Assembly: GCA_047285805.1 (NCBI GenBank) | Contig: JBJBCN010000002.1 | Span: 1,120,001 to 1,184,000, forward strand | Reading direction: 5' to 3' | Source: Synechococcus sp. | GTDB taxonomy: Bacteria; Cyanobacteriota; Cyanobacteriia; PCC-6307; Cyanobiaceae | Length of the DNA stretch: 64,000 nucleotides | In this document: positions 10,953-33,278 of the stretch, in pieces | How positions within the stretch are numbered: position 1 is the stretch's first letter | How the letters are laid out: each line of letters begins with the position of its first letter | Made by a program: the position numbers and the translations under genes | The notes under the pieces: model-generated | Databases searched by the model: none | The model's input: only the letters and a program-made list of their open reading frames with translations | Told to the model about the DNA's origin: nothing

Positions 10953-11118
10953 AGGTTCCAGTCATAGCAGTAGATCTCGTCAATAGAAGGCCGGTAGACT
11001 TTTGTTAGAGTTGTGGAGAAATTGATATAGTGAACGAACTGTCTTGTCTACAATGCAGAAAATATGTCGGTTCGGCCCGCTGAAAGCCCTAGAGAACGTT
11101 TTCTGCAAGCAAGACAGT

Positions 11119-11433
11119 TTGACGCGTCTTTTGCTACCGCTGCTGCTTGGTGCGATTGCCACCCCACTCAGCGCCGCTGCACACCACGGAAGGCTCCTGG
11201 CACACGTAGTAGAGGAAGGCGAGAAGAGCCTTCCAGTAAGTCGTGGAAGAGTTGATGCCGGTTCTAACGAACAGATTTACCTAATGCTTAAGGATGGTGC
11301 TTCATTCACCGTACCTATCCCGATGACAAACCGGTTCACTTGTGAGTTAGAAGGTGAAAAGTGGGTTGAGACCCCCGTCAAGGGCGTAGACGGGCGCTGG
11401 AAGGCGTTCTGGTGTGTCGCTGGGATGAAGTAG
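11119..11433 (+). CDS. Small secreted protein with two Cys (paralog at 27769-28079)
   Basis: Signal peptide, then LPVSRGRVD..EQIYLMLKDG..NRFTCELEG..FWCVAGMK; start uncertain. Confidence 0.7.
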   Translation: MTRLLLPLLLGAIATPLSAAAHHGRLLAHVVEEGEKSLPVSRGRVDAGSNEQIYLMLKDGASFTVPIPMTNRFTCELEGEKWVETPVKGVDGRWKAFWCVAGMK

Positions 11434-12183
11434 CCAGAGATGCGAACACAACCACTAAACAGGTCCCACCACAAACCGAGCCAAACAGGTCATCCAGACT
11501 CTAATTACTCCGAATAACGCAAGAGCAAGAAGTCGAGCACTTAAGAGCGATACCAGACAAAACCTCTGATTTTCACTGATAACATTAGCCATTGCCGCGC
11601 GCGATACAAGCAAGTCAATAACTCTATCAGGGATATCTTTAGACGAATGAATGGACGCCCTCAGTTTAAATGATCAAATCAGAAGCGGGCAAGATGTTCA
11701 CTACAAGCAGATCATTGGCAAATTAGAGTTGCATGGAATGCTAAACAAGCTACGCGGCTTAATCAGCTCAACAACGCTAAGAATTCGAAAGGTAGTCGAA
11801 TCGACAACAATCTACTTCCATTTGATATGAGATGAGATATGCCGTGTTTCATCTTCGTGAAAACGAAGGAAGAGACAAAGAAACAACAACTTGTATGATC
11901 AAAAGATTCGCATTGGGAACAGAGCCACTCGGGAACCACCTAGACAGCAGGGGAAGGAAAAGAAGGATGTTTAATACTCAGCAAGGAATCAGACCTAGCC
12001 ACAAGTAATAACAGCGTGACGAATAAATACCTACAACTACATACAGCCAGAGAGAACCGAAGAGTGTCATATCATTACAAACCCGCGATGCGCTGGATGC
12101 GGGAATAGCCGCAATGACTTTTGGCCTGGCGACCAATTGGTAAAATGAAATGCAGTAGTATGTTAGAAAGCCTTAAGAGTCCT

Positions 12184-14823: not shown

Positions 14824-15822
14824 ATGCAGCAGTCCCTAAGCATCTCGCTGGTGGCACTCAGCTCTTTTGCTTTCTCCATCACAACACTGGCTACCGTCAG
14901 CGCCAAACCAGATGAGGTGGCTTCCGGCCCTTATGGTGACGTTGGGTAATGAGGATCAAGCTCACGGGAATCGGCAAACTGCAGATCGCATCCAAGGTCA
15001 AACACAAGCCGCTCGCACCCTCTACCAAGCAGGTCTGGGTGGCTTCCTTTCCATGGTAGTGGGCAGCAACAGCGTCTTCTTTGCTGATGTGCGGGCGAAT
15101 GCAAACTTCGCGGACCGAGGCAGCATCAGCATCAATACCAAGGTGGCTGGTACCACCATCAGCACGTCATCCAGGCTGTGTTGCGTCTGACTGAACGTTG
15201 ACCGCAGTTGGATATTTGGCGTCAACGGTGGGTATGACACCCGACCGATGGCAGCTGGTGATGCCGCCGATACGGGCGTTGCGGTCTCTGATCAGTGGAC
15301 AGTCTTTTTCCAGCAGGCAGGGTTTGCTTGGAAGCAGTGAATGATGACTGGAACTTCAATACCTACGGGCTCATCCCAACTGGAACAACTGAATACAGGC
15401 TAAATAGTCGCTACAACGAAGGAGCAGTGGATACTTACGGGTTTAATGCAGGCTACAGCCTCACGACAAAGTGGAAGCTCAGCGTTGGCTATTACTACCA
15501 AAACCGCGACCTCAATACAGCTGATGGCTCAGGCGTGCTTGGGCGACTGACTTACAGCATCAATGAGGGTGTAACGGTTGGTGTCAATCTGTCTTATGAC
15601 AGGGCGCTTAAGTCACGCTTCTCGGCTGATATTAAGTGGCGGTTTAATACAGCAGGAATTACGCAAAGTGAAAAGCACAAGCAGGTGTGGGAGTAGCCAA
15701 CGATTAAGGCACTAACTGAGAGCGTTAAGAATAGGGATGTGCCGGTGCACGATTGCGAGGGTAATGGGGCTTGCAGGCGTAACGGGTTAAGAGGGTGCGG
15801 AGGCACTGTTTGTGGTATTTGA
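14824..15822 (+). pseudogene. Inverse-autotransporter beta-barrel paralog 1 (frameshifts and stops)
   Basis: MQQSL.. start; homologous in pieces to 30511-31542; ends NRDVPVHD-CEGNGACRRNGLRGCGGTVCGI*. Confidence 0.88.
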
Positions 15823-16766: not shown

Positions 16767-17753
16767 ATGCAGCAGTCCATTCGCCTGAGCCTCTCTCTCA
16801 CGGGTGCTGCAGCGCTGGCACTGGCATCAATGGCGCAGGTCAGCGCCAAGCCCGTTCAAGTCGCACAAGGCACAGCCAGTGACCTGGGTGTGATGAGCAT
16901 CAACCTCAAGGACATCGTCCAACCGCAGGTCGGCATCCAAGGTCAAACCCAAGCCGCTGGCACTCCCAACCAAGCAGGTCTGGGTGGATTCCTTCCACTA
17001 GTGGTCGGCAGCAACAGCGTCTTCTATGGCGACGTTCTGGCGAATGCCAACTTCGCAGACATCAACAACTCCTCCAGCATCATCAACACCACCGTTGCTG
17101 GCACCACCATCTCCACCTCATCCCGCCTGGGCTATCGCTGGCTCAATGGCGACCGCAGTTGGATGGTTGGCCTGAATGCGGGCTATGACACCCGACCAAT
17201 GAGCACGGGTGATGCCGATACAGGCATTCCTGTCTATGCCTCACGCACGGCTTTCTTCCAGCAGGCTGCTGTCAATGCAGAAGCGGTAAGCGATAAGTGG
17301 GCATTCAATGCCTATGCGCTTATCCCAACGGGTGACACCAAGCAGGTCCTCAACACCGTCTATCAAGGCGGCGCACTGGACACCTACGGCTTGGATGCGG
17401 GTTACAGCCTGACGCCAGCCCTAAGAGCATCTGTTGGTTACTACTACCAAAACGGCGATGCAGGAGAAGCAGATGGCTCTGGTGTCTTGGGTCGCCTCGC
17501 TTATGCCATCAATAACGAACTAACTATTGGCACCAACCTCTCTTATGACAGTGCCTTCAAGTCACGCTTCTCCGCTGATATCAAGTGGCGCTTCCAGACC
17601 AATGGCGGTCCTGGCAAAGAAACACCGAAAAACAATGCTGCCATTGAAGCCCTAATATCAACGCCAAGTAATCGGGATGTGCGGGTGCATGACGACTCCA
17701 GAAAGACACGAGTCACAATGGTCGATGGCTCGGTCAAGTTTGTAAACGACTGA
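16767..17753 (+). CDS. Inverse-autotransporter (intimin/invasin-type) beta-barrel protein, paralog 2, intact
   Basis: Signal peptide; RLGYRWL..WMVGLNAGYD; FFQQAAVNAE..NAYALIP; linker PSNRDVRVHD plus 19-aa tail. Confidence 0.85.
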   Translation: MQQSIRLSLSLTGAAALALASMAQVSAKPVQVAQGTASDLGVMSINLKDIVQPQVGIQGQTQAAGTPNQAGLGGFLPLVVGSNSVFYGDVLANANFADINNSSSIINTTVAGTTISTSSRLGYRWLNGDRSWMVGLNAGYDTRPMSTGDADTGIPVYASRTAFFQQAAVNAEAVSDKWAFNAYALIPTGDTKQVLNTVYQGGALDTYGLDAGYSLTPALRASVGYYYQNGDAGEADGSGVLGRLAYAINNELTIGTNLSYDSAFKSRFSADIKWRFQTNGGPGKETPKNNAAIEALISTPSNRDVRVHDDSRKTRVTMVDGSVKFVND

Positions 17754-19143
17754 ATTATTTTACCAATCCCATTAGGTCCTTGGGTGGGGAGATTTCCCAG
17801 AGACTTAAGTGAGGGGAATCACTCCTTGATAGCCTGCAACAAATTGCGAAACATATAAGTCTTCAGTGCGAGATCGCGAAAACCAAGAAATCAACATCCA
17901 ATATCTGGCATCATTGCCATCAACCTAGCTTGACGACAGACCCATCAAGGCACTGAATAGAAGTCACCTCAGAATATGAATTCGACTGTGGGCAGTTTTC
18001 AATACGTTGAAGAAAACCGTCAACATATCGATATTCACTCACACCTTTTCCTATGCCGTCACGGTTAGCCGGCACGAAGAAGAACGTTTTTGATGGTTGG
18101 GAGTTCCATCAAACTCCATTGAATCCAGTCGCAGAAAGCGTTCTCAAGGAATTGGTAGACAGGGTTGTGAAATAGGTAGGCAAACACGTGCACTCAGTGC
18201 GGAATAAGGCCGCTCCGGCACCGAACAACACTTGAGCGCCCGGTGATATGGATTGGACCCACTGCTGGTATGCACACCTAAACCGGTGCCTCATCTCGTC
18301 CTGCAGTGGTCCTCAGATCCACAGAAAAAGTTCATTTGGTTACAAACGGCACATCACCGCCAAAGCGGCTGCTGGATCATTTGCTTGTGACCTCCGGGTC
18401 GGGCAAGGGAGATAGCTGAGGCGGGCTGGAACCGCCTTTTTCATGTCCGCCGGACCGCTGCTGGGTTGCATCAGCAGACGCTGCTGCCATTCCTGCTCCA
18501 GCTGGTCCAGGCGGGTGCTCACGGCTGGGTTCACTGAGGGGCGCCCAGTGATCGGCTAAACCTGGCAACAGATGTGACGTGAGTGGCTGCAAATGCCAGC
18601 AAACGGAAACCCGGCATGGGGGTATCTGGAGCCCTTCTGACTCAATGAAGTGGGCTCAGAAATTTGCGGTTGGAACTTGTCGCATGTGTGGGAAAAAACC
18701 ACAGCTGATCGAGGCTTCAGTCAAGAGGGGATGTATCGAGGACGGGTACTTCAAAGGACATCCAAACGCCAGTCAGTCCACGCCGAAATTCATTCACGTT
18801 GGGAGCGGCTATGCGGGTTTACGTCTGGCGAGTCCTGAGTTGGCTGTGAATGCTGAGGAGGCTTCGTACAACTTGCACCCTTGGCGCTTCTCTTGCGGTT
18901 GGTTGGTTTCCCGAGCAAGGTTGGACTTTTGTCCATGCTCGACGTGTTGTCAGCGGAGCTTTGTTCTGGGTTCATGAGCCGTCCCAGTGACGTACCAACG
19001 CTGGCAATAGCTCTAGTGGTGTCGCCAGCTCATGCCAGCAAACGGACACCGTGTATGGGTTAACTGGAATCCTTGTGAGTACGTGAAGTGGCTTCAGAAA
19101 TTTGAGGCAGGAATCGGCTTAAACAAGAAACCGCCCAGATGAA

Positions 19144-19368: not shown

Positions 19369-20333
19369 ATGCAGCAGTCCATTCGCCTGAGCCTCTCTCT
19401 CACGGGTGCTGCACCGCTGGCACTGGCATCATGGCGCAGGTCAGCGCCAAGCCCGTTCAAGTCGCACAAGGCACAGCCAGTGACCTGGGTGTGATGAGCA
19501 TTCAGCTCAAGGACATCGTCAAACCTCAGGTCGGCATCCAAGGTCAAACTCAAGCCGCTGGCACCCCTAACCAAGCAGGTCTGGGTGGCTTCCTTCCACT
19601 TGTGGTCGGCAGCAACAGCGTCTCCTTTGCTGATGTCCTGGCGAATGCCAACTTCGCTGACATCAATAACTCCAGCATCATCATCAACACCACCGTTGCT
19701 GGCACCACCATCTCCACCTCATCTCGCCTGGGCTAGCGCTGGCTCAATGGCGACCGCAGTTGGATGTATGGACTGAATGCGGGCTACGACACCCGACCAA
19801 TGAGCACGGATCCTGCAGACACAGGTATCCCTGTCTATGCCTCACGCACCGCCTTCTTCCAGCAGGCTGCCGTCAATGCAGAAGCGGTGAGCGATAAGTG
19901 GAACTTCAATGCCTATGCGCTCATTCCAACGGGTGACACTGAGCAACAGCTCAACACCGTCTATGAAGGCGGTGCACTAGACACCTTCGGTTTGGATGCC
20001 GGTTACAACCTCACCAAAGCTTTAAGAGCATCTGTTGGTTACTAATACCAAAACGGCGATGCAGGCGATGCCGATGGCTCTGGCGTCTTGGGACGCCTCG
20101 CCTATGCCATCAACAATGGACTCACTGTTGTCACTAATCTTTCCTACGACAGTGCCTTCAAGTCACGCCTCTCCGCTGACATCAAGTGGCGCTTCAATAC
20201 CAATGGCGGTCCTGGTAAAGAAACACCGAAAACCAATTCCGCCATTGAAGCCCTAATATCAACGCCAAGCAATAGGGATGTGCGGGTACACGATTGTTCC
20301 CTGGAGGTTCTTGCGCAATTGGGGCAGTGTTAG
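19369..20333 (+). pseudogene. Inverse-autotransporter paralog 3 (1-bp deletion near 19430, TAG 19734, TAA 20043)
   Basis: Close to paralogs 2 and 4; ends NRDVRVHD-CSLEVLAQLGQC*. Confidence 0.9.
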
Positions 20334-20380
20334 GGGGGGGGAATCTCCTAATCAGTGGAGAATTGGGAGCCTAATCACCC

Positions 20381-20408
20381 AAAGCCCCTGCAACCGCAGG
20401 GGCTTTTT
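20381..20408 (+). terminator. Intrinsic terminator after paralog 3
   Basis: aaagcccctgcaaccgcaggggcttttt. Confidence 0.85.
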
Positions 20409-20890
20409 ATTTCTTCAGTCACACCAATAAGGCAATAAACCAGCCTCCAATGCCTGGCACCATCGCCATCAACGCAACCTGACGGCAGACCCAACGAGGC
20501 ACTGAATAGAAGTCAACTCAGGAAAACACATCAGCTGTAGGCAATCTTCTATAAGTTAAAGTTAAACCGTCAACAGGTCGACATTCACTAAGGCCTTTTT
20601 TCTATACCGTCACGCTTGTTCGGGACAGAGGGGGACTTTTTCTATGCATGGGAGTTCTAAGGAAACTCCATTTAATCGAGTCGTGCCACGCGCTCTCAAG
20701 GAATCAGTAGACAGGTTTGCCACAAGAGGTAGACAACCAAGTCCACTCAGCGAGGCAGAAGGCAACGTGCAGCGAGCTGCAGCGGCAACAACTAGCAAAG
20801 GAAGGTTGTATGTCGATTGCAGATTCGTTGGAAGCAGCGCGGAAGACGGCCAGTGCCATCAAATTGAAAGGCACGACTACCAGCGGCAGG

Positions 20891-21047
20891 TCTGCTCAAG
20901 GTCGGCTGAATGCCCGTAGAGGCACTTTGAGGAGCCGATCAGGAGGTGTAGCTGTCTGCTCAGCATTCAGGCGTAGAAGCCCCTAGGGGGGGGGGGGAGC
21001 TGGGTCCATGCGCCTACGTAATACGGCTTCAGAAAATTGGGCCAGGA
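20891..21047 (+). pseudogene. Duplicated 3' fragment of the DUF1651 gene plus its downstream sequence
   Basis: Matches 26041-26198, with two TGG>TGA changes. Confidence 0.75.
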
Positions 21048-21087
21048 AACCATCTGAAGCCGAGGCCCTTCCAATTCACATCAATGG

Positions 21088-21258
21088 TCAAGAGTCAGCG
21101 AACACGTCATAGATCGGTCGAATAGAGCGACTAACCTTTTCTGAGCGCTCTTGAGCTATTTCAAGCCTCCGCTTAGTCGTTGCAAGCTCAACTTCTATCG
21201 CCAATTGTTCAAGCTGAGCACTTAGAAGCTTTTGGGTTCGCGCTGAAACATTTGCCAT
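21088..21258 (-). CDS. Small helical/coiled-coil protein (56 aa)
   Basis: Translated by hand: MANVSARTQKLLSAQLEQLAIEVELATTKRRLEIAQERSEKVSRSIRPIYDVFADS. Confidence 0.45.
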   Translation of the reverse strand: MANVSARTQKLLSAQLEQLAIEVELATTKRRLEIAQERSEKVSRSIRPIYDVFADS

Positions 21259-21419
21259 GGTTATCGGTTAATTTGCTGAAAGCTATAAATTGAATTCGGC
21301 AATCGCGTAAAGACTTTACGTATCTACACCTATGCATGTAGTTAAGTGAAGCATTTGCTTGGCTGGGCCTCATTGGCGGGGTGTTCGGTTTGCCGCTTCT
21401 GGCTGCAGGCAGCCCCTTG

Positions 21420-21845
21420 CACGCTTGCAGCGAACTAAGCCATAACCACTGAGGACACGGTTCCCCGCAGACCCTTTGATCCGAGAAGGGGGAGCGGCTA
21501 CCTCCCCGACCTCAACACTCCCCGTCACTAAGCAGTAGCTCGGGGAGCTGTTTGGCGAGCAAGCAAAAAGCCGGTCACCAATCGGCTCCTTTCTCTCCCC
21601 GTGCACTGCACGGCACTCCTTGGTTTTGGCTCATCTGGATACAAAGCGCCAGTAGCGTGTCTGCAGTCGCAGTAGAGCTTCTTTACGAGCCCTCGCACTA
21701 CCCACATGGGTTTTGCCATAACCGATCTGAGGAAAGCTGATTGGCGAGTCCCAGCGATCCGACGGGGAGCCAACTCCCTCCCCGATTTCTCCCTGAGCCC
21801 GCCCAATACCCCTCCGACGCCTTCGTTTTGAAGTCGGAGGTTTTT
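21420..21845 (+). ncRNA. Candidate structured non-coding RNA with two copies of an internal motif (possibly Cyano-2-related)
   Basis: Dense hairpins, three GCGA-containing loops, duplicated GCCATAACC..CTGAGGA..GATCCGA..GGGGAGC..CTCCCCGA, 3' terminator, no convincing ORF. Confidence 0.6.
21810..21845 (+). terminator. Intrinsic terminator closing the candidate RNA
   Basis: cctccgac...gtcggagg stem followed by ttttt. Confidence 0.75.
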
Positions 21846-22205
21846 GCCTTATGGCTAGGCTTGACGGGTCGGCGTCAGCAAGTGCAAGTGGCACCTAGGC
21901 AGCTTTAACTGAAGGAGGCCTCAGTCGCCTGAGCTGCAGACGGTTTCCACCAGTCCAACACTGGTCTCGAAGCTCTTAGACCAGCACGTCGCTTATGCAG
22001 TCGCTGTAAGCGCAAACCTCTGTGGCTAGTCATCACATGGAGGTTTTTTCTTGGCTGGTCGCTGAAGGGTTGCTTACGGCTAGATGCTGGAGAGCCTCAG
22101 GCCCAGTCCTTAGTCCCACACACAACGCTCAATGGGTGACCAAAGACACGTCACCGCTGAAGGCCTGGCCGCACTATTTCACCAAGACCTTCGAATGGGT
22201 TTCAA

Positions 22206-22249
22206 GGGACAAAAAAGCGGCGGTGTGAAACCCGCCGCTTTTTTGTCCC
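22206..22249. terminator. 18-bp perfect inverted repeat, probable bidirectional terminator
   Basis: gggacaaaaaagcggcgg-tgtgaaac-ccgccgcttttttgtccc. Confidence 0.7.
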
Positions 22250-23089
22250 GATGGCCACTGCCGGGTTGCATCAGCAAACGCTGCTGCCATTCCGTCTCCA
22301 GCTGGTCACAGTGGGCGAGGACGGCTGGGTTAAAGAGGTGGTCGCGGAGGCTGAGTGTGAAATTCCTATGGAAAATCGTTGTTGGTGCACTCTGGGTGGG
22401 TATTTGTCCATTACTGAGGCCCCATAACGCATGAAGCGACTTACTTAAGCCATAGGCATTAGGGAAATGGTCGTCACTTGACTGGATAGATGGGGTTGGG
22501 GTGTCTTTCCGCTCACCCCACCTCAACGTTCCCCACCGCGAGCGGTGGTCTAGGAAGGTTGTGGCACTAACGATCTTCTTATTCCCATAGCGCAAGCCAA
22601 TGGGTGGTGCAGTGATCACACATAGACAATTCTTGTGCTTGTCAAGCCTGTATTTGGGATAGGCCTCCACAAGAGAGCTGAGTCTTCATTGATTCGACGA
22701 GTCCTAAGGCTCATCTCTATTCACGAAGCATGCATATAGAACTAATTCCATGCCCAAGACACTCTTTCATTGGAGAGGATGTTACAAGATCGACAAATCC
22801 ATTACATCAACAATACAGAAGACAAGGAGTGGCCCGCAACCCCAAGCTGTGAACTCGTAGATTGAGCCATCCGGCAAGTTCTTATTTATGCATAGGAGAG
22901 TCTTAGGCGGATTCTTTAGCACCCAACCGAAACCGCATTTTTGTATCCGAAAGCACCAAAGCCATGAAAACAACAATTAATAAGCGGCTCGGACAAGGGT
23001 TTGCTGACACAACCAACGAACGGTACCGTTTGATACTCGTTGTGTATTAGCTAATTCGCGAGAATTTTGATATGTATTCAGCTGTGTAG

Positions 23090-23506
23090 ATGCTTGCTCG
23101 CAGACCTATCGAGATCGTTCATCAGACTCCTCTACAGTCAGGTGTAGGGTTCTTTGGCGATCCACTTCCCAGTGACGAAACGCTAATTGCGGAGATTCCA
23201 CCTTGTGTGAGTCCTCAATTGTTTTGTCATCGCAATCAAACTGATCAACTGATGGTCCTGCGCGGAAGCATCGATCTAATAGTTCTGCAGAACCGGGCTT
23301 TGAAGCGGATAGCCCTTAGGGAAGATGAGGCCTTCTGGGTACGTATTCCAGCAGGTGTCCCACATGGCGCTATCAACCGAAGCCATGGCTCAGCCGTGCT
23401 GGTCAATGCAGTGTTGCGCCATGGTCCAAGCGATCTTCGTGATTATCGCCCTCGGCCTGTTCCCAACGCCCTACTGCCAGAATGGAATGATCTAATCAAC
23501 AACTAA
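23090..23506 (+). CDS. RmlC-like cupin (dTDP-4-dehydrorhamnose 3,5-epimerase-like)
   Basis: FCHRNQTDQLMVLRG and IPAGVPHGAIN cupin motifs. Confidence 0.75.
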   Translation: MLARRPIEIVHQTPLQSGVGFFGDPLPSDETLIAEIPPCVSPQLFCHRNQTDQLMVLRGSIDLIVLQNRALKRIALREDEAFWVRIPAGVPHGAINRSHGSAVLVNAVLRHGPSDLRDYRPRPVPNALLPEWNDLINN

Positions 23507-24130
23507 GTCATTATGAGAGCTCTATGCAGTTTCCAGAAAAAAGCTTTCACCAAAGTCATTGATAAAAAGATCAGATAATTGGATATGCATCTTTTGGTGC
23601 CATGATTAATTCAGATTGTGCGTATCTGGCAGCCCTAGATCCTCTAGGCGATAGTCCCGCAACCACGGCGGGAATTGAAAACAGCAGAGATTAACCACAT
23701 ATTTGATTCCGCGCAATCAATCAACAAGATCCGACCTTAAGTCTGGTTGACAATCTTCTTAATCTGGCTTCTGAACCCTGAAGCCAGTAAGAGCTGTACG
23801 AGTCTGCAAGGTGACTTGTTGGCATCGGGTCTGTTTCCCTTCAACCATTGCTTTAGTACGAAGAAGCATTTGACTTGTGGTCGCGCCCTGGGCTTCCATT
23901 GCAGCTGCGACAAGAAGCCAGTTTATTATTCGGTAGTTGATGAAGCTGTAGTTCGGTGGACTGAACCAACAACCAATGCGACCCCAGTGGACCTATCGCG
24001 CTGGAGGTTTCCGAACCATAAAGTCTCGCGAAAGGCTGAGGCAAGTGCTTTCCAGGCAATAGTTGCAATCGACACGTCAAAGGAAGAGCACCACTTGTCA
24101 TAATTGTCTCCAGCACGTGGTCCTGGGCCG

Positions 24131-24319
24131 ATGAGCGACGAGGTCGTAGCGAGTTTTCACTACAACTTGACGGCATTGAGGTTGGAGTACAAAACCACTT
24201 CTGATGCTCTTCAGAAGTGGTCAGGTGGTCCGGCAGAAGAGCAGGACTTTTTGGTCTACAAGAAACAAGAACTCTTCAGGGCCATGGTTGAGCAAAGCTA
24301 TCACTCGGATGCAGACTGA
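24131..24319 (+). CDS. Small hypothetical protein
   Basis: MSDEVVASFHYNLTALRLEY..WSGGPAEEQDFL; compact helical ORF. Confidence 0.6.
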   Translation: MSDEVVASFHYNLTALRLEYKTTSDALQKWSGGPAEEQDFLVYKKQELFRAMVEQSYHSDAD

Positions 24320-24936
24320 CACTAATTGACCACGAACGATCAGGTATTCGTCATCCATCAAGTTTTGAAGGCTTGAGCGACTCCGATACCCCAGCTGTCT
24401 TAATTCCGCTGCAATGCTTTTAATGGCCACTACTAACCCGATATCAGCGCCTAAACCAGCCAAAGGAATTTTGAGCTGACGCTAGACAAACCGAGCGCCT
24501 CTGGAGACCCACAGACGCTATTAAACGAAGGACCCTCAAGGCGCAAAACCATCTTGAAGCAACTAGAAGTGTGGGGGGGATCAATGATCTTTGCTCCACA
24601 GTTGCGAAGCCGCAAATCGCCAGGCGATGAAAGTACTTAGGGACGCGCCAAAGGCAAGAAGAGCTAACAAGAGCTGAGAGGTGGTCATAGAAGCACCCTG
24701 AATTGAATTTATTTATAAAGCCTTCATGGTGACTGGCGCCGTTGATACAAGATCAGGCGTATCAATCAATACGTCTTTTGGTGAGCCTAAATTACTTAAC
24801 TCACTTACCAATGAATGGTAGATCTGCGATTTTCATCAGAGTCCAGTTGACCTGCGGGACCACGACAAAAGAGGTGACTCAAGGTCAGAGTGTCCACCAC
24901 TCAAGACCTCGTTGTAAACTGATTCGATCCAGCCAC

Positions 24937-25173
24937 TCAAGAATCTGCTGCCTTTTGTCTCCAATGGGTTCCATGATTTCGCAAGGCTTCAGCTTCCATC
25001 TCCCTTCGAATCTGCACTACTGCTTCGCGCACGAAGGCTTTTTCGTGCTCCTGTGCGGCAATGATTTGCTTGGTTAGTGCACGTAAGGCATCAATATCTT
25101 CGCAGGCATCGATTTCTCGAAAGGCGGCCTCAAGGTGGAATTTTTGCTCCAGTGAGAGTCGGTGGTTAGCCAT
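24937..25173 (-). CDS. NblA-like small helical protein
   Basis: LSLEQKF motif near the N-terminus, 78 aa, two-helix pattern. Confidence 0.55.
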   Translation of the reverse strand: MANHRLSLEQKFHLEAAFREIDACEDIDALRALTKQIIAAQEHEKAFVREAVVQIRREMEAEALRNHGTHWRQKAADS

Positions 25174-25227
25174 GGTGGTACGAAAAGAGGCCCCACTCAT
25201 GTGAGGCCAGATAAGTCAGTTGAGTGC

Positions 25228-25395
25228 TTAGCGGACTTCCGAGATTGTTTGAGGTGCAGCCGGGAAGCTTGTTGGCATTGGGTCCGGCAGTCCTTCGGCA
25301 AGAGCCTTCGCGCGGACATACATCTGACTATTAATGGCACCCTGAGCTTCCATTGCCTCGGCGACAACAGCCCAGTTGCGGATCTCGGTAGTCAT
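25228..25395 (-). CDS. Small hypothetical protein
   Basis: MTTEIRNWAVVAEAMEAQGAINSQMYVRAKALAEG..DP; co-oriented with the NblA-like gene. Confidence 0.6.
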   Translation of the reverse strand: MTTEIRNWAVVAEAMEAQGAINSQMYVRAKALAEGLPDPMPTSFPAAPQTISEVR

Positions 25396-25852
25396 TGGAA
25401 GAAATGACGATTGAACCTGCAAACTTTCGCCACCTCAGCCGCGAGACGGTGAGGATGAAAACCGATCACCTACCGAACATCGATTCCACTTCTTTCGCTG
25501 GTAGGCATTTGCGGATCAAGTCAAACAAAAAGGCGACTGCAAGGCCACCTGATGCACTAAAAACCCAGTCCCAGTCAAGAAAGTCATGCGATCGCGTCCT
25601 GCATCGCAGCGAAGCTTTCAGGGTGTCTGACGGCGATATGGATCGACTGCAGCGCTCGGATGCCAGTCGTGGACTCAATTCGTCCATGTGATCGCCAGCC
25701 CCAGTTGTGACAAGCGTTCTTGTTGAAGCTTGGGTAAGGCGCTGTTTAGTCCCGCTATCAGGGTTTTGAACCCCCTATGAATAAGAAACTCTGAGGCTCC
25801 CGCCACAACCGGCTCAACCGGCTAGCCTGGTACAGGCGTACTAAGGCATGGG

Positions 25853-26101
25853 ATGTCAATAGGGGGGTTCATCCAGGATCCAGCTAGCAAGCAGGCCAAG
25901 CGCTTCCACCGCGATGAGAAGAGTTGGTCACAAGACCCCATGGTCTTTGTGGACACAGGCGTTCCGATTCCGGGCGAGCCTCCGCTCCTGAAGACTCGAG
26001 TGCACTTACATCGCAACGTTGCGGTGACCCTCTGGAACGATCTACTCAAGGTCGGCTGGAAGCCCGTAGAGGCGCTTTGGGGAGCCGATCAGGAGGTGTA
26101 G
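25853..26101 (+). CDS. DUF1651-family protein
   Basis: KRFHRD..VFVDTG...PPLLKTR..W..L.K.GW pattern. Confidence 0.75.
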   Translation: MSIGGFIQDPASKQAKRFHRDEKSWSQDPMVFVDTGVPIPGEPPLLKTRVHLHRNVAVTLWNDLLKVGWKPVEALWGADQEV

Positions 26102-26221
26102 CCGTCTGCTCAGCATTCAGGCGTAAACACCCCCCCCATGGGGGGCTCGTACGTCCATGCGCCTACATAATTCGGCTTCAGAAATTTGGGCCAGGAACCT
26201 CGATAAAGCCAAGCAAGACCA

Positions 26222-26257
26222 GTGCAGCGGCCTGGTAGTGCGGGTGCTTTGGGAGCA
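26222..26257 (+). repeat. Degenerate 5' half of tRNA-Pro(TGG), att-like scar
   Basis: gtgcagcggcctggtagtgcgggtgctttgggagca resembles the D arm and anticodon arm of tRNA-Pro; no T arm. Confidence 0.5.
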
Positions 26258-26418
26258 ACCGCAACTACAAGCGAGAAGCTAGTCATTCACTAGATCCAGC
26301 AAGTCTTAACCGGCTGTATTAGCGACAAACTAGCGACAACGCTCCTGCACTCACTCGATTTATCCGTGCGGACGAGCTGCAATCACGGCAACATCACTGC
26401 AACCACGTACCAGCGCTG

Positions 26419-27369
26419 ATGCTGCGGACCTTGTCGATTGGGTTAATGGCATCTGCATTCGCAGTCGCCACTCTCCCTGCACAAGCTGATGGGCATGGCA
26501 GCGCCAGTGACCTAGGCGTGATGAGCATTCAGCTCAAGGACATCGTCAAACCTCAAGTCGGCATCCATGCGCAAACCCAAGCCGCTGGCACCCCCAACCA
26601 AGCCGGTCTGGGTGGCTTCCTTCCACTGGTGGTCGGCAGCAACAGCATCTTCTTTGCTGATGTCTTGGCGAATGCCAACTTGTCGGACTGGGGTAACAGC
26701 AGCAGCATCATCAACACCACCGTTGCTGGCACCACCATCTCCACCTCATCTCGCCTGGGCTAGCGCTGGCTCAATGGCGACCGCAGTTGGATGTATGGAC
26801 TGAATGCGGGCTACGACACCCGACCAATGAGCACGGGTCCTGCAGACACAGGTATCCCTGTCTATGCCTCACGCACCGCCTTCTTCCAGCAGGCTGCCGT
26901 CAATGCAGAAGCGGTGAGCGATAAGTGGAACTTCAATGCCTATGCGCTCATTCCAACGGGTGACACTGAGCAACAGCTCAACACCGTCTATGAAGGCGGT
27001 GCACTAGACACCTTCGGTTTGGATGCCGGTTACAACCTCACCAAAGCTTTAAGAGCATCTGTTGGTTACTAATACCAAAACGGCGATGCAGGCGATGCCG
27101 ATGGCTCTGGCGTCTTGGGACGCCTCGCCTATGCCATCAACAATGGACTCACTGTTGTCACTAATCTTTCCTACGACAGTGCCTTCAAGTCACGCCTCTC
27201 CGCTGACATCAAGTGGCGCTTCAATACCAATGGCGGTCCTGGTAAAGAAACACCGAAAACCAATCCCGCCATTGAAGCCCTAATATCAACGCCAAGCAAT
27301 AGGGATGTGCGGGTGCACGATTATTGTTATCTACCCCGTCGGGGTGCGTGCCGATTGGGGATGGATTAG
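26419..27369 (+). pseudogene. Inverse-autotransporter paralog 4 (TAG 26761, TAA 27070), with a different signal peptide
   Basis: Body nearly identical to paralog 3; ends NRDVRVHD-YCYLPRRGACRLGMD*. Confidence 0.9.
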
Positions 27370-27421: not shown

Positions 27422-27612
27422 AAAGCCCCTGCAGTTGCAGGAGCTTTTTATTTCTTCAGTTACACCAATAAGCCAATAAACCAGCCTCCAAAACCTGGCA
27501 CCATCACCATCAACGCAACCTGACGACAGCCCCATCAAGGCACTGAATAGAAGTTGCCTCAGGATAAAAAGTCAGCTGTGGGTAGTCGTTACACGTTGAA
27601 GAGGAACTCCAT
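27422..27612 (+). repeat. Conserved module right end: terminator, about 140-bp spacer and exact ychF 3'-end att core (27589-27612)
   Basis: Close copy of 33112-33302; ttacacgttgaagaggaactccat is identical in both. Confidence 0.92.
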
Positions 27613-27768
27613 AGGTTCTAGTCATAGCAATAGATCTGAGCGGAAAAGCAGCAGTAGACTTTTAGTAGACTTATTTGGCACCCGAGTCGGCTTGCCTACT
27701 GTCTAGCAATACATAAGCACTACGCGGTTGACGTTCTGGATGAGGTCGAAGGTGAGCAATACAGTTGG

Positions 27769-28079
27769 ATGCGACGTTTCCTACCGCTGCGATTGGCGTG
27801 ATTGTAACGCCGCTGAGTGCAGCAGAACACCACGAGACGAAGCCGGCACAGGTCGTTGATGAAAGTGATACGAACCTTCCCGTGAGTCGTGGAAGGGTTG
27901 ACACCGGTTCTACAGAGCAGATTTACCTGATGCTCAAGGACGGTGGTTCCTTCTCAGCACCCATTCCAATGACGAACCGGTTCACTTGTGAACTAGAGGG
28001 TAAGAAGTTGGTTGAGACGCCCATCAAGGGCGTAGTCGGTCGCTGGAAGGAGTTCTGGTGTGTCGCTGGGATGAAGTGA
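27769..28079 (+). pseudogene. Second copy of the small secreted protein, apparently with a 1-bp deletion in the signal peptide
   Basis: Mature part highly similar to 11119-11433; ATG at 27769 is out of frame with the body (ctgctt versus cgatt). Confidence 0.65.
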
Positions 28080-28247: not shown

Positions 28248-29951
28248 TCACCCTTCAATGAGTGACCGGAATTCAGTATCCACAAGCTTTTGATGCACAC
28301 ATTGCGCAATTCGGCTCGTGAGAGGGTAGCCAGGATGAGAATCTACATGGACACCATTCCACATCCATCTTGGAGCTGCTTTGTCAATACCTGTAACCTC
28401 CTGTATATCAGGCAAGCATGAATGACTTGGTATTCCAGCGTGACGGAATAAGCCGTCAGCATATTCAAATACTTTGCTTTGACTCTGTAGACCATTCCAA
28501 GGAGTGAAAAACACATAAATGGGAGCTTGAGCTTCTTCAACCAAGGCTTTCACAGCTTGAACATTCAACGCATGCCGATTTGGATCCAGACTCATATCAT
28601 TATCGACAAATCCGAGGAGAATCAAATCGACGGAGTGCTTTGAGCCTTTTACCTGAAGAAAGTCAACCTGATCTCTAGTACTCCAACCGCCCTGCCCCCA
28701 ATAAAAGACTAAACAGCCAGGAACCAACTTCTGAAACTGAGCCGGCCAGCGCTCATCGCTTCCTGGGGAATTACCCCAACCCCATACAAACGAGTCACCT
28801 AGAACAGCAATTTTACACTTAGCTTGAAGATCGTAATCAGCTACTGGTCGGTCGATAAAGCCATATTCATTAACACTGCCAAGGCGTTTCCACAAGTTCA
28901 CTCGATTAATAAATTCACTCTTTATCGGCAAGTACGAAGGACTTCTTGATGCAGACTCATCAAGCAAACTGGTTGTTGAAAGCAGCAGGTCAAGAACAAC
29001 TAACGAAAAAGCTGTCATACAAGAGAAGACAAGTAGATTCACCCCCAATAGCTTGCTTGCCTTATCAAGGTTAATGGCAGTCCTGGCCTTACCTAAACCA
29101 CAGAGAAGCGGCAAGATCTCCGAAAAAAGAATCCATAACAGGAGGCAAAGAATTGCCCCTCTTAAATAAAGAGGGATATCAAAAGTCGAAAGATACACGA
29201 GAACGCCATCCGACTCTTCTACATAGAAATAAATAGGAGAAAGCCAGGGAATATACTCAGCAACAATCGTCTGAAGCTTGCCTACAAACAGAGCATCCAA
29301 ATGCCGACGAGACAAGAAGACTGAGGGGGCTTTTATCCATGGAACAAATAGGCCTCTGTGATACAAAGAAGTATCTTGCAAGAAACCACCCTTGCACCCG
29401 GCATCCAAAATACTATCAGGATGCAAAACAACAAATCCCAGAGGGGAGCGATCAGTCCATCCGGAGTAAAATGAGAGCGGTTTTTTTTTGGAATATTCAA
29501 CTGCCAAATCATCGGCCCTAGTTAAGCCATGGTCAAATAAGTCACCCAAGAAGCTTCTCTTGGGAATCAAGTAATTCCCTTTAGTTTCCAAGGGGACACC
29601 CTGAAAAGACTGGAGCTTCTGCTCGAGCCAATAAAAAGCTGGAGAGTGCCAAAGCACTTCTGAGCGTGGCTTACGAAAAGCCTGAGTTACATCAAGATTT
29701 CCAGAAGCAAGTGGTCCAGAATGAAAGTAAGTGTCTAGGTTTTTCTTTGGCTTATAACCTTCGTAGGGCGGCACAGAATAAAATCTTGTGGGCCTGACTT
29801 CAAATCGGAAGTAATCACTACTATCGATGCATTCCGAATTCCCCGATCCCATCAAGAACTTTGACGGCAGGCCTGGAGCAAATACAGCTGCTCCGAGTAG
29901 CGGCAAAAAAAGCCATTTAGCACCAAGCGGACATAAAGATCGAAGCTTCAC
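28248..29951 (-). CDS. Membrane-anchored SGNH/GDSL hydrolase-family protein
   Basis: AVLGDSF (block I), GQGGWST (II), GFVDND (III), DSHP (V); two internal TM segments. Confidence 0.8.
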   Translation of the reverse strand: MKLRSLCPLGAKWLFLPLLGAAVFAPGLPSKFLMGSGNSECIDSSDYFRFEVRPTRFYSVPPYEGYKPKKNLDTYFHSGPLASGNLDVTQAFRKPRSEVLWHSPAFYWLEQKLQSFQGVPLETKGNYLIPKRSFLGDLFDHGLTRADDLAVEYSKKKPLSFYSGWTDRSPLGFVVLHPDSILDAGCKGGFLQDTSLYHRGLFVPWIKAPSVFLSRRHLDALFVGKLQTIVAEYIPWLSPIYFYVEESDGVLVYLSTFDIPLYLRGAILCLLLWILFSEILPLLCGLGKARTAINLDKASKLLGVNLLVFSCMTAFSLVVLDLLLSTTSLLDESASRSPSYLPIKSEFINRVNLWKRLGSVNEYGFIDRPVADYDLQAKCKIAVLGDSFVWGWGNSPGSDERWPAQFQKLVPGCLVFYWGQGGWSTRDQVDFLQVKGSKHSVDLILLGFVDNDMSLDPNRHALNVQAVKALVEEAQAPIYVFFTPWNGLQSQSKVFEYADGLFRHAGIPSHSCLPDIQEVTGIDKAAPRWMWNGVHVDSHPGYPLTSRIAQCVHQKLVDTEFRSLIEG

Positions 29952-30169: not shown

Positions 30170-30193
30170 TTATACGTTGAAGAGAAACTCCAT
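30170..30193. repeat. att-like copy of the ychF 3' end
   Basis: ttatacgttgaagagaaactccat, two mismatches to 33279-33302; still encodes MEFLFNV*. Confidence 0.88.
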
Positions 30194-30510
30194 AGGGTCG
30201 AGTAATAGCAAAGGATCTCAGCCGAAAAGCGGCAGTAGACTTTTCAAGCCGTCAAGCCAGTAGACAAAGCATCTTGTCTACCCTGATTCAGCTCACACTC
30301 ACCACTGTCTAGACTTCCGCAGGGCTGCACTAATCCAGAGCACAGGGGACGCCGACAATCTTCCAGTTCATTGGAATCGGTGACGCAGCAGGAATCGTCT
30401 AGGGAGTCTCGTCTGCCTTCATCGTGCCGACGACCAGCCAACTGCTCTAAGCCCAGTGGCAATGGCGGATTTCCTGGCGAAACTCCCAACAGAAGTTGAG
30501 CGCGAGCGCT

Positions 30511-31542
30511 ATGCAGCAGTCCATTCGCCTGAGCCTCTCCCTCACTGGTGCAGCTGCTTTGGCACTGGCATCAATGCCGCAGGTGAGCGCAAAGCCTGCA
30601 GTGGTGGCGCAAGGGAGCGCGGAAGACCTTGGAGTGATGAGCATCCGCCTCAAGGATGTGGTGAAACCGCAGGTTGGTGTTCAAGGTCAAACCCAAGCGG
30701 CTGGCACCCCGAATGAGGCAGGCATTGGCGGTTTTATGCCGCTGGTGGTGGGAGAGAACAGCGTCTTCTTTGCTGATGTGCTGGCGAATGCGAACTTCGC
30801 GGACTGGGGCAACAGCAGCAGCATCATCAATACCAAGGTGGCGGGTCCCACCATCAGCACGTCATCCAGGCTTGGGTATCGCTGGCTGAATGGTGACCGC
30901 AGTTGGATGTTTGGTGTCAACGGTGGGTATGACACCCGACCGATGGCAACGGGTGATGCCGATACAGGTGTTGCGGTCTCTGGCCAGCGGACAGTCTTTT
31001 TCCAGCAGGCAGCGTTTGGCTTGGAGGCAGTGAATGATGACTGGAGCTTCAATGCCTATGGATTAATACCAACTGGAACAACGGAATACAGGTTGAATAG
31101 TGCTTACAACGGGGGAGCACTGGATACGTATGGGTTTGATGCGGGCTACAGCATCACGCCAGAGTGGAAGCTGAGTGTTGGCTATTACTACCAGAATGGC
31201 GACCTCAATACAGCTGATGGCTCAGGCGTGCTGGGGCGACTGGCTTACAGCATCAATGAGGGAGTAACGGTTGGCACCAATCTGTCTTATGACAGCGCGT
31301 TTAAGTCACGCTTCTCAGCTGACATTAAGTGGCGGTTCAATACGGCAGGAATTTCGCAAAGCGAGAAGCAGAAGAAAGCGTGGGAGAAGCCAACGATTAA
31401 GGCATTAACTGAGAGCGTGAAGAATAGGGATGTACGGGTGCACGATACGACCTGGTGTAATACCCCAGGCGGGGAACCGGGAATATTAGTAACTACCCCT
31501 GGAGACGGGAAGTCTGTGTGTGTCACGCCCGCCCCAATGTAG
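30511..31542 (+). CDS. Inverse-autotransporter beta-barrel protein, paralog 5, intact
   Basis: Same motifs as paralog 2; ends VKNRDVRVHD-TTWCNTPGGEPGILVTTPGDGKSVCVTPAPM*. Confidence 0.87.
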   Translation: MQQSIRLSLSLTGAAALALASMPQVSAKPAVVAQGSAEDLGVMSIRLKDVVKPQVGVQGQTQAAGTPNEAGIGGFMPLVVGENSVFFADVLANANFADWGNSSSIINTKVAGPTISTSSRLGYRWLNGDRSWMFGVNGGYDTRPMATGDADTGVAVSGQRTVFFQQAAFGLEAVNDDWSFNAYGLIPTGTTEYRLNSAYNGGALDTYGFDAGYSITPEWKLSVGYYYQNGDLNTADGSGVLGRLAYSINEGVTVGTNLSYDSAFKSRFSADIKWRFNTAGISQSEKQKKAWEKPTIKALTESVKNRDVRVHDTTWCNTPGGEPGILVTTPGDGKSVCVTPAPM

Positions 31543-31566
31543 GGTGAGCCTAACCACCCAACGCCC

Positions 31567-31597
31567 AAAGCCCCTGTAACCGCAGGGGCTTTTTATT
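31567..31597 (+). terminator. Intrinsic terminator after paralog 5
   Basis: aaagcccctgtaaccgcaggggcttttt. Confidence 0.85.
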
Positions 31598-31859
31598 TCT
31601 TCAGTCACACCAACAAGCCAACAAATCAGCCTCCAATGCCTGGCACCATTGCCCTCGACTTAGCCCAATGGCAGGTCGCTCACGGCATTCTTTGCCTCAT
31701 CGCAAGACCGCAAGACACACCAAAGCCTCCCTCAATATCTTTCTCTCTACTTCTATCCTTATTTCCTCAACGCATTCACCAATCACTTCGCTCTCTATAG
31801 CCATCACGGATGCCATTGGCGCGTCTAAATCTCACCGCCACTTGATACCAAGCCGCCTG

Positions 31860-31936
31860 GGGGCAACGACCTCCGCTGGACGGCAGAAGAAGGCGTGGGG
31901 CAGGGCTGGGAAATCTCTGGTGATGGGCTGGGTGGC
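31860..31936 (-). pseudogene. mpg: Second N-terminal Mpg fragment
   Basis: Reverse strand reads [18 protein letters not shown]; homologous to 19144-19253. Confidence 0.6.
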
Positions 31937-32053
31937 TATGGGAGTGGCTTCTGGTCTCCCTTCATCGTGCCGACGACCAGCCAACTGCTCTAAGCCCAGT
32001 GGCAATGGCGGATTTCCTGGCGAAACTCCCAACAGAAGTTGAGCGCGAGCGCT

Positions 32054-33082
32054 ATGCAGCAGTCCATTCGCCTGAGCCTCTCCCTCACTGGTGCAGCTGC
32101 TTTGGCACTGGCATCAATGCCGCAGGTGAGCGCAAAGCCTGCAGTGGTGGCGCAAGGGAGCGCGGAAGACCTTGGAGTGATGAGCATCCGCCTCAAGGAT
32201 GTGGTGAAACCGCAGGTTGGTGTTCAAGGTCAAACCCAAGCGGCTGGCACCCCGAATGAGGCAGGCATTGGCGGTTTTATGCCGCTGGTGGTGGGAGAGA
32301 ACAGCGTCTTCTTTGCTGATGTGCTGGCGAATGCGAACTTCGCGGACTGGGGCAACAGCAGCAGCATCATCAATACCAAGGTGGCGGGTCCCACCATCAG
32401 CACGTCATCCAGGCTTGGGTATCGCTGGCTGAATGGTGACCGCAGTTGGATGTTTGGTGTCAACGGTGGGTATGACACCCGACCGATGGCAACGGGTGAT
32501 GCCGATACAGGTGTTGCGGTCTCTGGTCAGCGGACAGTCTTTTTCCAGCAGGCAGCGTTTGGCTTGGAGGCAGTGAATGATGACTGGAGCTTCAATGCCT
32601 ATGGATTAATACCAACTGGAACAACGGAATACAGGTTGAATAGTGCTTACAACGGGGGAGCACTGGATACGTATGGGTTTGATGCGGGCTACAGCATCAC
32701 GCCAGAGTGGAAGCTGAGTGTTGGCTATTACTACCAGAATGGCGACCTCAATACAGCTGATGGCTCAGGCGTGCTGGGGCGACTGGCTTACAGCATCAAT
32801 GAGGGAGTAACGGTTGGCACCAATCTGTCTTATGACAGCGCGTTTAAGTCACGCTTCTCAGCTGACATTAAGTGGCGGTTCAATACGGCAGGAATTTCGC
32901 AAAGCGAGAAGCAGAAGAAAGCGTGGGAGAAGCCAACGATTAAGGCATTAACTGAGAGCGTGAAGAATAGGGATGTACGGGTGCACGATACGACCTGGTG
33001 TAATACCCCAGGCGGGGAACCGGGAATATTAGTAACTACCCCTGGAGACGGGAAGTCTGTGTGTGTCACGATTACGCCCTAA
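32054..33082 (+). CDS. Inverse-autotransporter beta-barrel protein, paralog 6, intact
   Basis: Protein identical to paralog 5 except the final residues (..VCVTITP*). Confidence 0.87.
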   Translation: MQQSIRLSLSLTGAAALALASMPQVSAKPAVVAQGSAEDLGVMSIRLKDVVKPQVGVQGQTQAAGTPNEAGIGGFMPLVVGENSVFFADVLANANFADWGNSSSIINTKVAGPTISTSSRLGYRWLNGDRSWMFGVNGGYDTRPMATGDADTGVAVSGQRTVFFQQAAFGLEAVNDDWSFNAYGLIPTGTTEYRLNSAYNGGALDTYGFDAGYSITPEWKLSVGYYYQNGDLNTADGSGVLGRLAYSINEGVTVGTNLSYDSAFKSRFSADIKWRFNTAGISQSEKQKKAWEKPTIKALTESVKNRDVRVHDTTWCNTPGGEPGILVTTPGDGKSVCVTITP

Positions 33083-33139: not shown

Positions 33140-33278
33140 ATTTCTTCAGTCACACCAAGAAGCCAGCAAATCAGCATCCAATACCTGGCACTGTCGTCAT
33201 CAACGCAACCTGATGACAGACCCATAAGGGCACTGAATAGAAGTTGCCTCAGGATAAAAAGTCAGCTGTGGGTAGTCG

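What the first reader, a model, noticed from the sequence alone, without database searches (positions are those of the whole stretch)
19369..27369. Two silent copies share the same two stop codons yet carry different tails
Seen: paralogs 3 and 4 align at a constant offset of 7027 bp over about 610 bp. I count three substitutions, and both copies carry identical nonsense codons at Tyr positions (TAG 19734/26761, TAA 20043/27070). Identity ends exactly after CAC GAT (HD). The tails, which are both open and Cys-paired, and the signal peptides are unrelated. Inference: either tails were swapped after the body died, or a dead body was gene-converted between loci while tails were kept. Either way the recombination boundary sits at the linker, as expected if broken copies act as a donor archive (pilS/vls-like).
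Basis: partly seen in the sequence, partly recalled or inferred. Interest (0 to 1): 0.82.

Follow-up and report, generated by a model that had tools for sequence, protein, structure and literature searches.

The report
Dead barrel gene overwrote its neighbour
Two broken copies of a surface-barrel gene family in a marine cyanobacterium share the same two stop codons but different short tails, most likely because a dead copy's middle was pasted into its neighbour by ordinary gene conversion, which is a side effect of constant shuffling in this family rather than a dedicated store of spare tails.

Summary
w3 (19369-20333) and w4 (26419-27369) share 617 bp with 3 differences, both stops included. 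Short-read contigs carry the stop-bearing body at about twice single-copy depth and bridge both tail junctions, so it is not a collapse. w4 is a patchwork; w3 also has its own frameshift. Best reading: w3's dead body was gene-converted into w4, stopping where homology ends (direction about 60-65%). The genome has 11 copies, 7 intact; they are predicted intimin-type barrels with hypervariable Cys-paired tails. Intact copies show the same 'same body, different tail' pattern, so dead copies are not special. The pilS/vls archive is not supported: there is no single expression site, the constant part moved, and neither tail was found on an intact barrel. The scan noted this family before on other DNA of this genome (e1-7899058, e1-8388885).

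The parts
19369..20333 (+). w3: full-length pseudogene of the mini inverse-autotransporter family (signal peptide, barrel, RDVRVHD linker, 12-aa two-Cys tail); frameshift plus two nonsense codons; likely donor of the dead body
   Evidence: uniform ~10% divergence from B and w2 along its length
19430..19431 (+). 1-nt deletion in w3's signal-peptide region relative to w2; ORF from ATG 19369 ends after 41 codons
   Evidence: contigs with and without the base
19679..20295 (+). shared tract in w3 (617 bp, 3 differences from w4)
19734..19736 (+). TAG at a conserved Tyr (model residue 99, inside a predicted barrel strand)
   Evidence: contig of 242 bp at depth 1396 with 0 differences
20043..20045 (+). 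TAA at a conserved Tyr (model residue 202, inside a predicted barrel strand)
20295..20333 (+). w3 tail, 12 aa with Cys at both ends, plus stop
   Evidence: junction bridged by a 151-bp single-depth contig
20381..20411 (+). terminator-like hairpin after the tail; conserved 3' arm found behind 9 of the 11 copies; matches the hairpin consensus printed for prochlorosin loci at 26 of 30 positions
   Evidence: paper text; comparison by eye
26419..27369 (+). w4: mosaic pseudogene (own start, B-identical front, w3-derived dead body, own 15-aa two-Cys tail); ORF ends after 114 codons; likely recipient
26447..26748 (+). 302-bp tract identical to intact copy B (G000:C2, about 547.7 kb, minus strand); overlaps the w3 tract by 43 bp
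   Evidence: contigs at about twice depth over 26447-26677
26706..27322 (+). shared tract in w4, with TAG 26761-63 and TAA 27070-72
27322..27369 (+). w4 tail, 15 aa with two Cys, plus stop
   Evidence: junction bridged by a 284-bp single-depth contig in 3 of 3 runs
27423..27452 (+). w4 hairpin (variant)
27539..27612 (+). 74-bp stretch of w4's 3' flank identical to w6's 3' flank (33229-33302)
14824..15822 (+). w1: older pseudogene of the family (stops and frameshifts), 22-aa four-Cys tail
16767..17753 (+). w2: intact copy, 328 aa, Cys-free 19-aa tail; used for fold prediction; leader and upstream region 96% like w3's
30511..31542 (+). w5: intact copy of the second body clade; 3' flank exact with copy E over 313 bp
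32054..33082 (+). w6: intact copy; body exact with copy E (contig C3) over 1075 bp but E has an unrelated tail; 98.9% identical, same tail, to a gene of genome G418

Best explanation
w3 and w4 are broken members of an 11-copy family of predicted intimin-type outer-membrane barrels with short, hypervariable Cys-paired tails, and they share two stops most likely because the already dead body of w3 was copied into w4 by ectopic gene conversion. Shown: the shared tract, the stops, w4's patchwork (B-identical front, w3-identical body, own tail, w6-identical flank piece), and long exact tracts between intact paralogs with different tails here and in two other genomes. Inferred: w3 died first and gathered four private changes in the tract (two stops, Gly to Val, one silent); homologous recombination with w4, 7 kb away, then copied 0.6 kb and ended where homology ends, at the linker, which knocked out w4 while leaving its tail in place. 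Inferred more widely: bodies are interchangeable and homogenised by conversion, while tails are exchanged as cassettes between the conserved linker and the conserved downstream hairpin region; copies are gained and lost continually. The tails are predicted to be disulfide loops shown on the cell surface (untested). No dedicated recombinase or archive is needed.
For: w4 has a breakpoint against both partners: vs w3 24 of 203 then 3 of 573 differences (P 5e-12), vs B 0 of 203 then 54 of 573 (P 6e-8); w3 has none (vs B P 0.42, vs w2 P 0.45), and the two segment trees place w4 with B, then with w3 (100/100). w3 carries an extra frameshift outside the tract, w4 none. w3 and w4 do not share flanks. 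Intact controls: w6/E exact over 1075 bp, then 3 changes in the last 55 bp and an unrelated tail, with w5/E exact over 313 bp downstream; exact tracts of 107-501 bp among 5 of 7 intact G023 copies examined and of 886 and 896 bp in two G387 pairs with different tails; 113 of 121 protein pairs with bodies 97% or more identical have unrelated tails (159 proteins, 10 clusters, pairs not independent). Fold: pLDDT 90.6, best PDB matches intimin 4E1S/5G26 and invasin 4E1T, E 1e-9 to 4e-9. Odd Cys count in 8 of 214 tails against 100.6 expected. No reverse transcriptase (PF00078) and no Y1 transposase (PF01797) match in the genome.
Against: Direction is not proven. All lineages are about 10% apart, so w4 could have been the donor to both w3 and B. 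The count of private changes in the 5' segment does not single out w3 (w3 4, w2 4, D 4, B 2), so only the frameshift marks w3 as independently dead, and it could post-date the event. Two of the three w3/w4 differences lie in the last 57 bp, as the E/w6 differences do, which also fits a tail arriving with a piece of linker. No sister strain with the earlier state was found. The protein itself has no Pfam match and only 4 of 58 family members match IAT_beta. Surface display and expression are untested.
Confidence: 0.6

Rival explanations
1. Same recombination, other history: either w4 was the donor and w3 the recipient, or dead w3 was duplicated to the w4 site and then had its front replaced from B and its tail cassette replaced.
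For: Tail replacement on a near-identical body is seen among intact copies (E vs w5/w6). Two of three w3/w4 differences are near the linker. Zero differences in the 302-bp B tract against 3 in 617 bp is compatible with a later overwrite of w4's front, though also with the same age (P 0.23).
Against: w4's first 28 coding bases and upstream DNA match neither w3 nor B, and its 3' flank is closer to w6 (90%) than to w3 (79%), so duplication needs at least three further replacements. w3 shows no breakpoint against B or w2.
Confidence: 0.25
2. Dedicated donor archive (pilS/vls-like): broken copies are kept as stores of tails that are recombined onto live barrels, or are revived by conversion of their body.
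For: Dead and live copies do exchange DNA (w4 = B over 302 bp). All four dead copies still have Cys-paired tail sequence between the two conserved arms, so they could serve as donors.
Against: 7 of 11 copies are intact, no single expression site. Dead copies are whole genes, not promoterless cassettes. The tract moved the constant part and destroyed a gene. None of the four dead-copy tails occurs on an intact copy in this genome. w3 and w4 tails were not found on intact barrels (thin sampling of a huge tail space). D's two-Cys tail is itself out of frame by one base. Dead copies differ in age (15 private changes in D's tract vs 5 in w3's), as in plain decay.
Confidence: 0.1
3. Assembly artefact: one dead body was collapsed or polished into both sites.
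For: The 617-bp tract is longer than any laid contig that is unique to one copy, so no single piece spans a whole gene.
Against: Stop-bearing contigs have about twice flank depth (X1: 1396 and 1301 vs 532-648; TAA allele about 1300, 1200, 798 in X1-X3); both tail junctions are bridged at single depth with 0 differences; the two copies differ at 3 sites; both post-TAA fragments are on record from 4 contigs, the longest 1,404,521 bp, a length unlike our contig.
Confidence: 0.03
4. The stops are read through (recoding or suppressor tRNA), so the genes are live.
For: Both stops replace Tyr.
Against: Tyr codons are one base from TAG/TAA. No tRNA with a CTA, TTA or TCA anticodon among the 47 ARAGORN calls in the genome. 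w3 is also frameshifted; D's stop replaces Glu.
Confidence: 0.02

Closest known systems
Type Ve inverse autotransporters (intimin 4E1S/5G26, invasin 4E1T; Pfam IAT_beta PF11924; PMC4943183, passages read)
   Same: Signal peptide, predicted 12-strand N-terminal barrel, linker, C-terminal part beyond it; best fold matches. [quoted passage not shown]
   Different: No Ig-like passenger; median tail 27 aa, hypervariable, Cys-paired; up to 11-21 matches per genome; 11-13% identity to the solved barrels.
vls (Borrelia) / pilS (Neisseria) antigenic variation by gene conversion (PMC11499132, passages read; pilS from recall and search listing)
   Same: Segmental conversion between paralogs about 90% identical; some copies carry stops and frameshifts.
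   Different: Many live genes, scattered loci, whole-gene pseudogenes, constant part converted, flow into a copy that was thereby killed, tails non-homologous so they cannot be patched segment by segment.
Prochlorosin precursors (procA) of marine picocyanobacteria (bioRxiv 10.1101/2020.03.09.984088, whole text read, supplements not seen)
   Same: Conserved front, hypervariable Cys-containing end, conserved downstream hairpin (26 of 30 positions match the printed consensus), expansion and loss of copies in the same organisms.
   Different: Carrier is a barrel, not a Nif11 leader; even Cys counts point to disulfides, not lanthionines; the paper says prochlorosins vary by indels, whereas whole-tail replacement is seen here; no Y1 transposase match in this genome.
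Rhs / CDI C-terminal displacement with orphan modules (PMC3150448 and others, search listing and abstracts only)
   Same: Constant carrier, sharp junction motif, unrelated C-termini swapped by homologous recombination.
   Different: Tails are 12-45 aa with no toxin domain or immunity gene; spare units here are whole dead genes, not orphan tips.
Pseudogene-mediated gene conversion and birth-and-death evolution of gene families (own knowledge; eukaryotic examples in the listing)
   Same: A dead paralog passes its lesions to a neighbour; tract ends where homology ends.
   Different: Seen here in a bacterial surface-protein family; no cyanobacterial case came up.

Membership tests
vls/pilS-type silent-cassette system | Single expression locus | tested here: not met
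   7 of 11 copies have intact ORFs with signal peptides at four regions of the genome; expression itself not measured
vls/pilS-type silent-cassette system | Silent copies are partial cassettes lacking the 5' end or promoter | tested here: not met
   w3 and w4 are full length; w3's leader and upstream region are 96% like intact w2. Promoters could not be located
vls/pilS-type silent-cassette system | Variable region flows one way from silent to expressed copy | tested here: not met
   The shared tract is the constant body; no dead-copy tail on a live copy in this genome or; sampling is thin
vls/pilS-type silent-cassette system | High-frequency switching within a clone | not testable with these tools
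   Only contigs of three runs of one study were available; no joints inside w4; contigs drop rare variants
Inverse autotransporter (type Ve) | N-terminal signal peptide followed by a 12-strand barrel of the intimin/invasin fold | tested here: met
   Model of w2: 12 long strands, pLDDT 90.6; top three Foldseek hits intimin/invasin, TM 0.58-0.61 by query, 0.71-0.75 by target; signal peptide judged by eye
Inverse autotransporter (type Ve) | Pfam IAT_beta match | tested here: inconclusive
   w2 and w5 none; 4 of 58 members, best E 9.4e-6; an Atlas neighbour cluster carries PF11924 on 43% of members
Inverse autotransporter (type Ve) | C-terminal part threaded through the barrel and exposed outside | not testable with these tools
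   Inferred from topology; helix and strand follow the barrel in the model, lumen position not measured
Inverse autotransporter (type Ve) | Passenger of Ig-like repeats (typical members) | tested here: not met
   Tail median 27 aa, quartiles 17-46, 218 proteins
Diversity-generating retroelement | Reverse transcriptase and template repeat with adenine-specific variation | tested here: not met
   No PF00078 match in the genome; tails are unalignable and of different lengths
Prochlorosin/TnpA-REP module | Nif11 leader and facing TnpA-REP gene | tested here: not met
   Carrier is a barrel; no PF01797 match. The genome has 11 Nif11 matches elsewhere; all 9 hairpin matches at up to 3 mismatches lie behind barrel genes

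The most novel reading that the evidence does not exclude
Body-swap switch: because barrels are interchangeable and each tail stays tied to its locus, gene conversion of the constant body between live and dead alleles turns individual surface peptides off and on again, so dead loci are a dormant peptide library. This would be antigenic variation run in reverse (constant part moves, variable part stays), with w4 caught half-way: front from a live gene, back from a dead one.
Probability: 0.15. Interest if true: 0.75.

Novelty: new variant of a known kind. Interest (0 to 1): 0.45.

Why it matters
The pair is a dated snapshot of how a large, apparently undescribed surface-peptide family of picocyanobacteria (matches in 79 of 395 family genomes) turns over: barrels are homogenised by conversion, tails are exchanged between two conserved arms, whole genes move between species, and a dead copy can knock out a neighbour. 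The same layout (conserved front, hypervariable Cys end, shared hairpin) is described for prochlorosins, whose diversification mechanism is open, so these longer genes give recombination tracts that are easier to map. As an isolated event it is ordinary gene conversion.

Tried and rejected
Tail hunts: protein search with w4's last 54 aa (173 hits, 120 listed, none with the tail) and w3's last 41 aa (51 hits; only the two post-stop fragments of w3 and w4 themselves); degenerate DNA patterns over genome contigs (w4 0 matches; w3 2 matches in unrelated bacteria, not barrels); DNA searches of 45 genus genomes (no match above 76% across the tail outside this genome); local comparison of 8 tails of this genome with the 214 fetched tails (only B's own record matched). 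These are weak negatives. Private-change counts to fix direction were not decisive. Sequence search of PDB with w2 and with a 58-row profile: 0 hits. NCBIfam, Rfam: nothing on the family or island. Promoter scan uninformative (5 found, 14 expected). No RNA holder listed. Cluster members of the two fragments could not be looked up, so it stays open whether the other assemblies are the same strain. One G387 locus (L129) had no linker motif match and was dropped; 8 of its 21 matches were never fetched. Rejected: DGR, TnpA-REP, recoding, assembly collapse. Literature searches that returned no description of this family: 1 paper, on trimeric autotransporters; 0 each; 11 listed, one read in passages. 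The library lacks most subscription papers.
Full report
Setting. The window is G000:C2:1120001-1184000 of a 2.37-Mb picocyanobacterial genome; named homologs are from Synechococcus strains and are labelled 'carbamoyl-phosphate synthase L chain' or 'inverse autotransporter beta domain-containing protein'. The finding lies in a low-GC island between arfB and ychF. Six paralogs (w1-w6) are in the window and five more (A1, A2, B, D, E) elsewhere. Seven are intact (w2, w5, w6, A1, A2, B, E) and four broken (w1, w3, w4, D).

The observation. At offset 7027, w3 19679-20295 and w4 26706-27322 differ at 3 of 617 bases, and both carry TAG and TAA where 30 of 30 homologous stretches have Tyr. Mapped on a model of w2, the stops fall at residues 99 and 202 of 304, inside barrel strands. 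Tails and signal peptides are unrelated. The last difference is 6 nt before the end of the HD codons, and CACGAT is present in 10 of 11 copies, so the tract ends within about 7 nt of the point where all family members stop being homologous.

Not an assembly collapse. Three DNA runs hold 93-94% of the region's words; they are one study and may include the source sample. In run X1 a 242-bp contig over the TAG has depth 1396 and a 119-bp contig over the TAA depth 1301, both without differences at the stops, against 532-648 for unique flanks. The TAA allele has depth about 1300, 1200 and 798 in X1-X3, about twice the flanks in each; in X1 the TAC allele has 1937, fitting w2, B and D. Single-depth contigs bridge the w3 junction (151 bp, X2 and X3) and the w4 junction (284 bp, all three). 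No piece spans a whole gene, and contig depth is only a rough copy measure. Both post-TAA fragments are also on record from 4 contigs, the longest 1,404,521 bp; whether these are the same strain is unknown.

w4 is identical to intact copy B, 600 kb away on the other strand, over 302 bp (26447-26748), overlapping the w3 tract by 43 bp; 74 bp of its 3' flank are identical to w6's. Against w3, w4 has 24 differences in 203 bp and then 3 in 573 (P 5e-12); against B, 0 in 203 and then 54 in 573 (P 6e-8). w3 shows no such break against B (P 0.42) or w2 (P 0.45). Trees of 29 rows put w4 with B in the first segment and with w3 (100/100) in the second. w3 has a 1-nt deletion after 19430 that ends its ORF at 41 codons; w4's ORF runs 114 codons to the first stop. 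In the tract w3 and w4 share four changes seen in no other sequence (two stops, Gly to Val, one silent), and w3 has one more. Most of the other 28 w3/w4-specific sites within the genome are found in homologs elsewhere, so the body is its own allele lineage that later died.

Mechanism. The simplest history (inferred) is that w3 died, decayed for a while, and was then used as template for homologous recombination with w4, which kept its own start, tail and flanks and was inactivated. Direction rests on w4 being the patchwork and w3 having an extra lesion. It is not proven: private changes in the 5' segment are as frequent in intact copies (w3 4, w2 4, B 2), and w4 could have been donor to both. 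Duplication of dead w3 followed by re-tailing needs more events, because w4's start, upstream DNA and 3' flank do not come from w3.

The pattern is not special to dead copies. w6 and E are exact over 1075 bp, differ at 3 of the last 55 bp and have unrelated tails, while w5 and E are exact over 313 bp behind the tail: a tail cassette replaced between two conserved arms in live genes. Intact paralogs of G023 share exact tracts of 107-501 bp, and two G387 pairs share 886 and 896 bp with different tails. Among 159 fetched proteins, 113 of 121 pairs with bodies at least 97% identical have unrelated tails (10 clusters, not independent), and three tail types sit on bodies only 80-83% identical while the tails match at 87-94%. 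Genome G418, 84-90% identical in the flanking backbone, has at the same site one gene 98.9% identical to w5 over 990 bp with w6's tail, which suggests transfer between species; 2 of its 4 full-length copies carry a stop.

What the proteins are. The w2 model has 12 long strands, then a helix and a strand ending at HD, pLDDT 90.6; best PDB matches are intimin and invasin barrels (E 1e-9 to 4e-9, 11-13% identity). Of 214 tails, 8 have an odd number of Cys against 100.6 expected, and 153 of 159 bodies have none in the last 250 residues, which points to disulfide loops. By topology the tail would be outside the cell (inferred). The family matches in 79 of 395 genomes of the family searched. A hairpin follows the tail in 9 of 11 copies and matches at 26 of 30 positions the consensus printed for prochlorosin loci in 10.1101/2020.03.09.984088 (whole text read; supplements not seen).

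The archive idea. In PMC11499132 (passages) the vls system has one expression site, a contiguous promoterless cassette array and one-way conversion of variable regions. Here there are seven intact genes, the dead copies are whole genes, the constant part moved, and the result was a lost gene. No dead-copy tail is on a live copy in this genome, the w3 and w4 tails were not found on intact barrels (weak negatives given the tail diversity), D's two-Cys tail is out of frame by one base, and dead copies differ in age. In favour: dead and live copies do exchange DNA (w4 = B), and tails remain between the two conserved arms, so occasional reuse is possible. No reverse transcriptase, Y1 transposase or suppressor tRNA was found.

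Novelty. Searches found no description of this family; PMC4943183 (passages) notes barrel-only inverse autotransporters with very short extensions and cyanobacterial members. The scan's own earlier notes describe the family on other DNA of this genome; my reading was recorded before I saw them. What this finding adds is the mapped mosaic. pilS features, the DUF1651 island context and general statements on gene conversion are from my own knowledge where no call is cited. Verdict: real, explained by gene conversion in a birth-and-death family of minimal inverse autotransporters; interest 0.45.

Noticed in passing
window 31860-32934 and 31578-31890 vs G000:C3 about 203.3-204.9 kb: Copy E is an exact w6 body (1075 bp) and exact w5 3' flank (313 bp) around an unrelated tail and 55 bp of slightly different linker: the cleanest tail-cassette replacement in the genome.
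   Followed up: yes
L138:1-990 (G418) vs window 30659-31646: Gene with w6's tail is 98.9% identical between G000 and G418 while flanking backbone is 84-90%; G418 lacks most of the 10.9-30.2 kb island.
   Followed up: partly
window 10929-11003, 27589-27663, 30170-30244: A 75-nt repeat (76-87%) lies near the ends of the stretch that G418 lacks; 11147-11431 also repeats at 27793-28077 (80%). Possible island junction element.
   Followed up: no
window 18632, 19070, 21005, 26154 (44 nt); 20891 and 26041 (93 nt); 18432 and 22232 (100 nt): Small repeated island modules; 25853-26101 is a DUF1651 gene and 20891-20983 a fragment of its end.
   Followed up: partly
G000:C2 726476-727405 (copy D, minus strand): Older pseudogene whose two-Cys tail is shifted out of frame by one base exactly at the HD junction.
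   Followed up: partly
window 17694-17900: w2, though intact, has a Cys-free tail predicted as a beta-hairpin and lacks the family hairpin behind it.
   Followed up: no
window 10267-10407 (minus strand): A broken Nif11-domain match at the left edge of the island; 11 Nif11 matches in the genome.
   Followed up: no
window 12121-14010 and 28248-29951: Low-GC island genes: FkbM-family methyltransferase and a GDSL-like membrane protein, possibly surface-modification genes.
   Followed up: no
L140:10615-12775 (G418): DNA downstream of a G418 barrel copy matches G000:C2 156.2-158.4 kb, the region behind A1/A2, although its upstream matches copy E's site.
   Followed up: no
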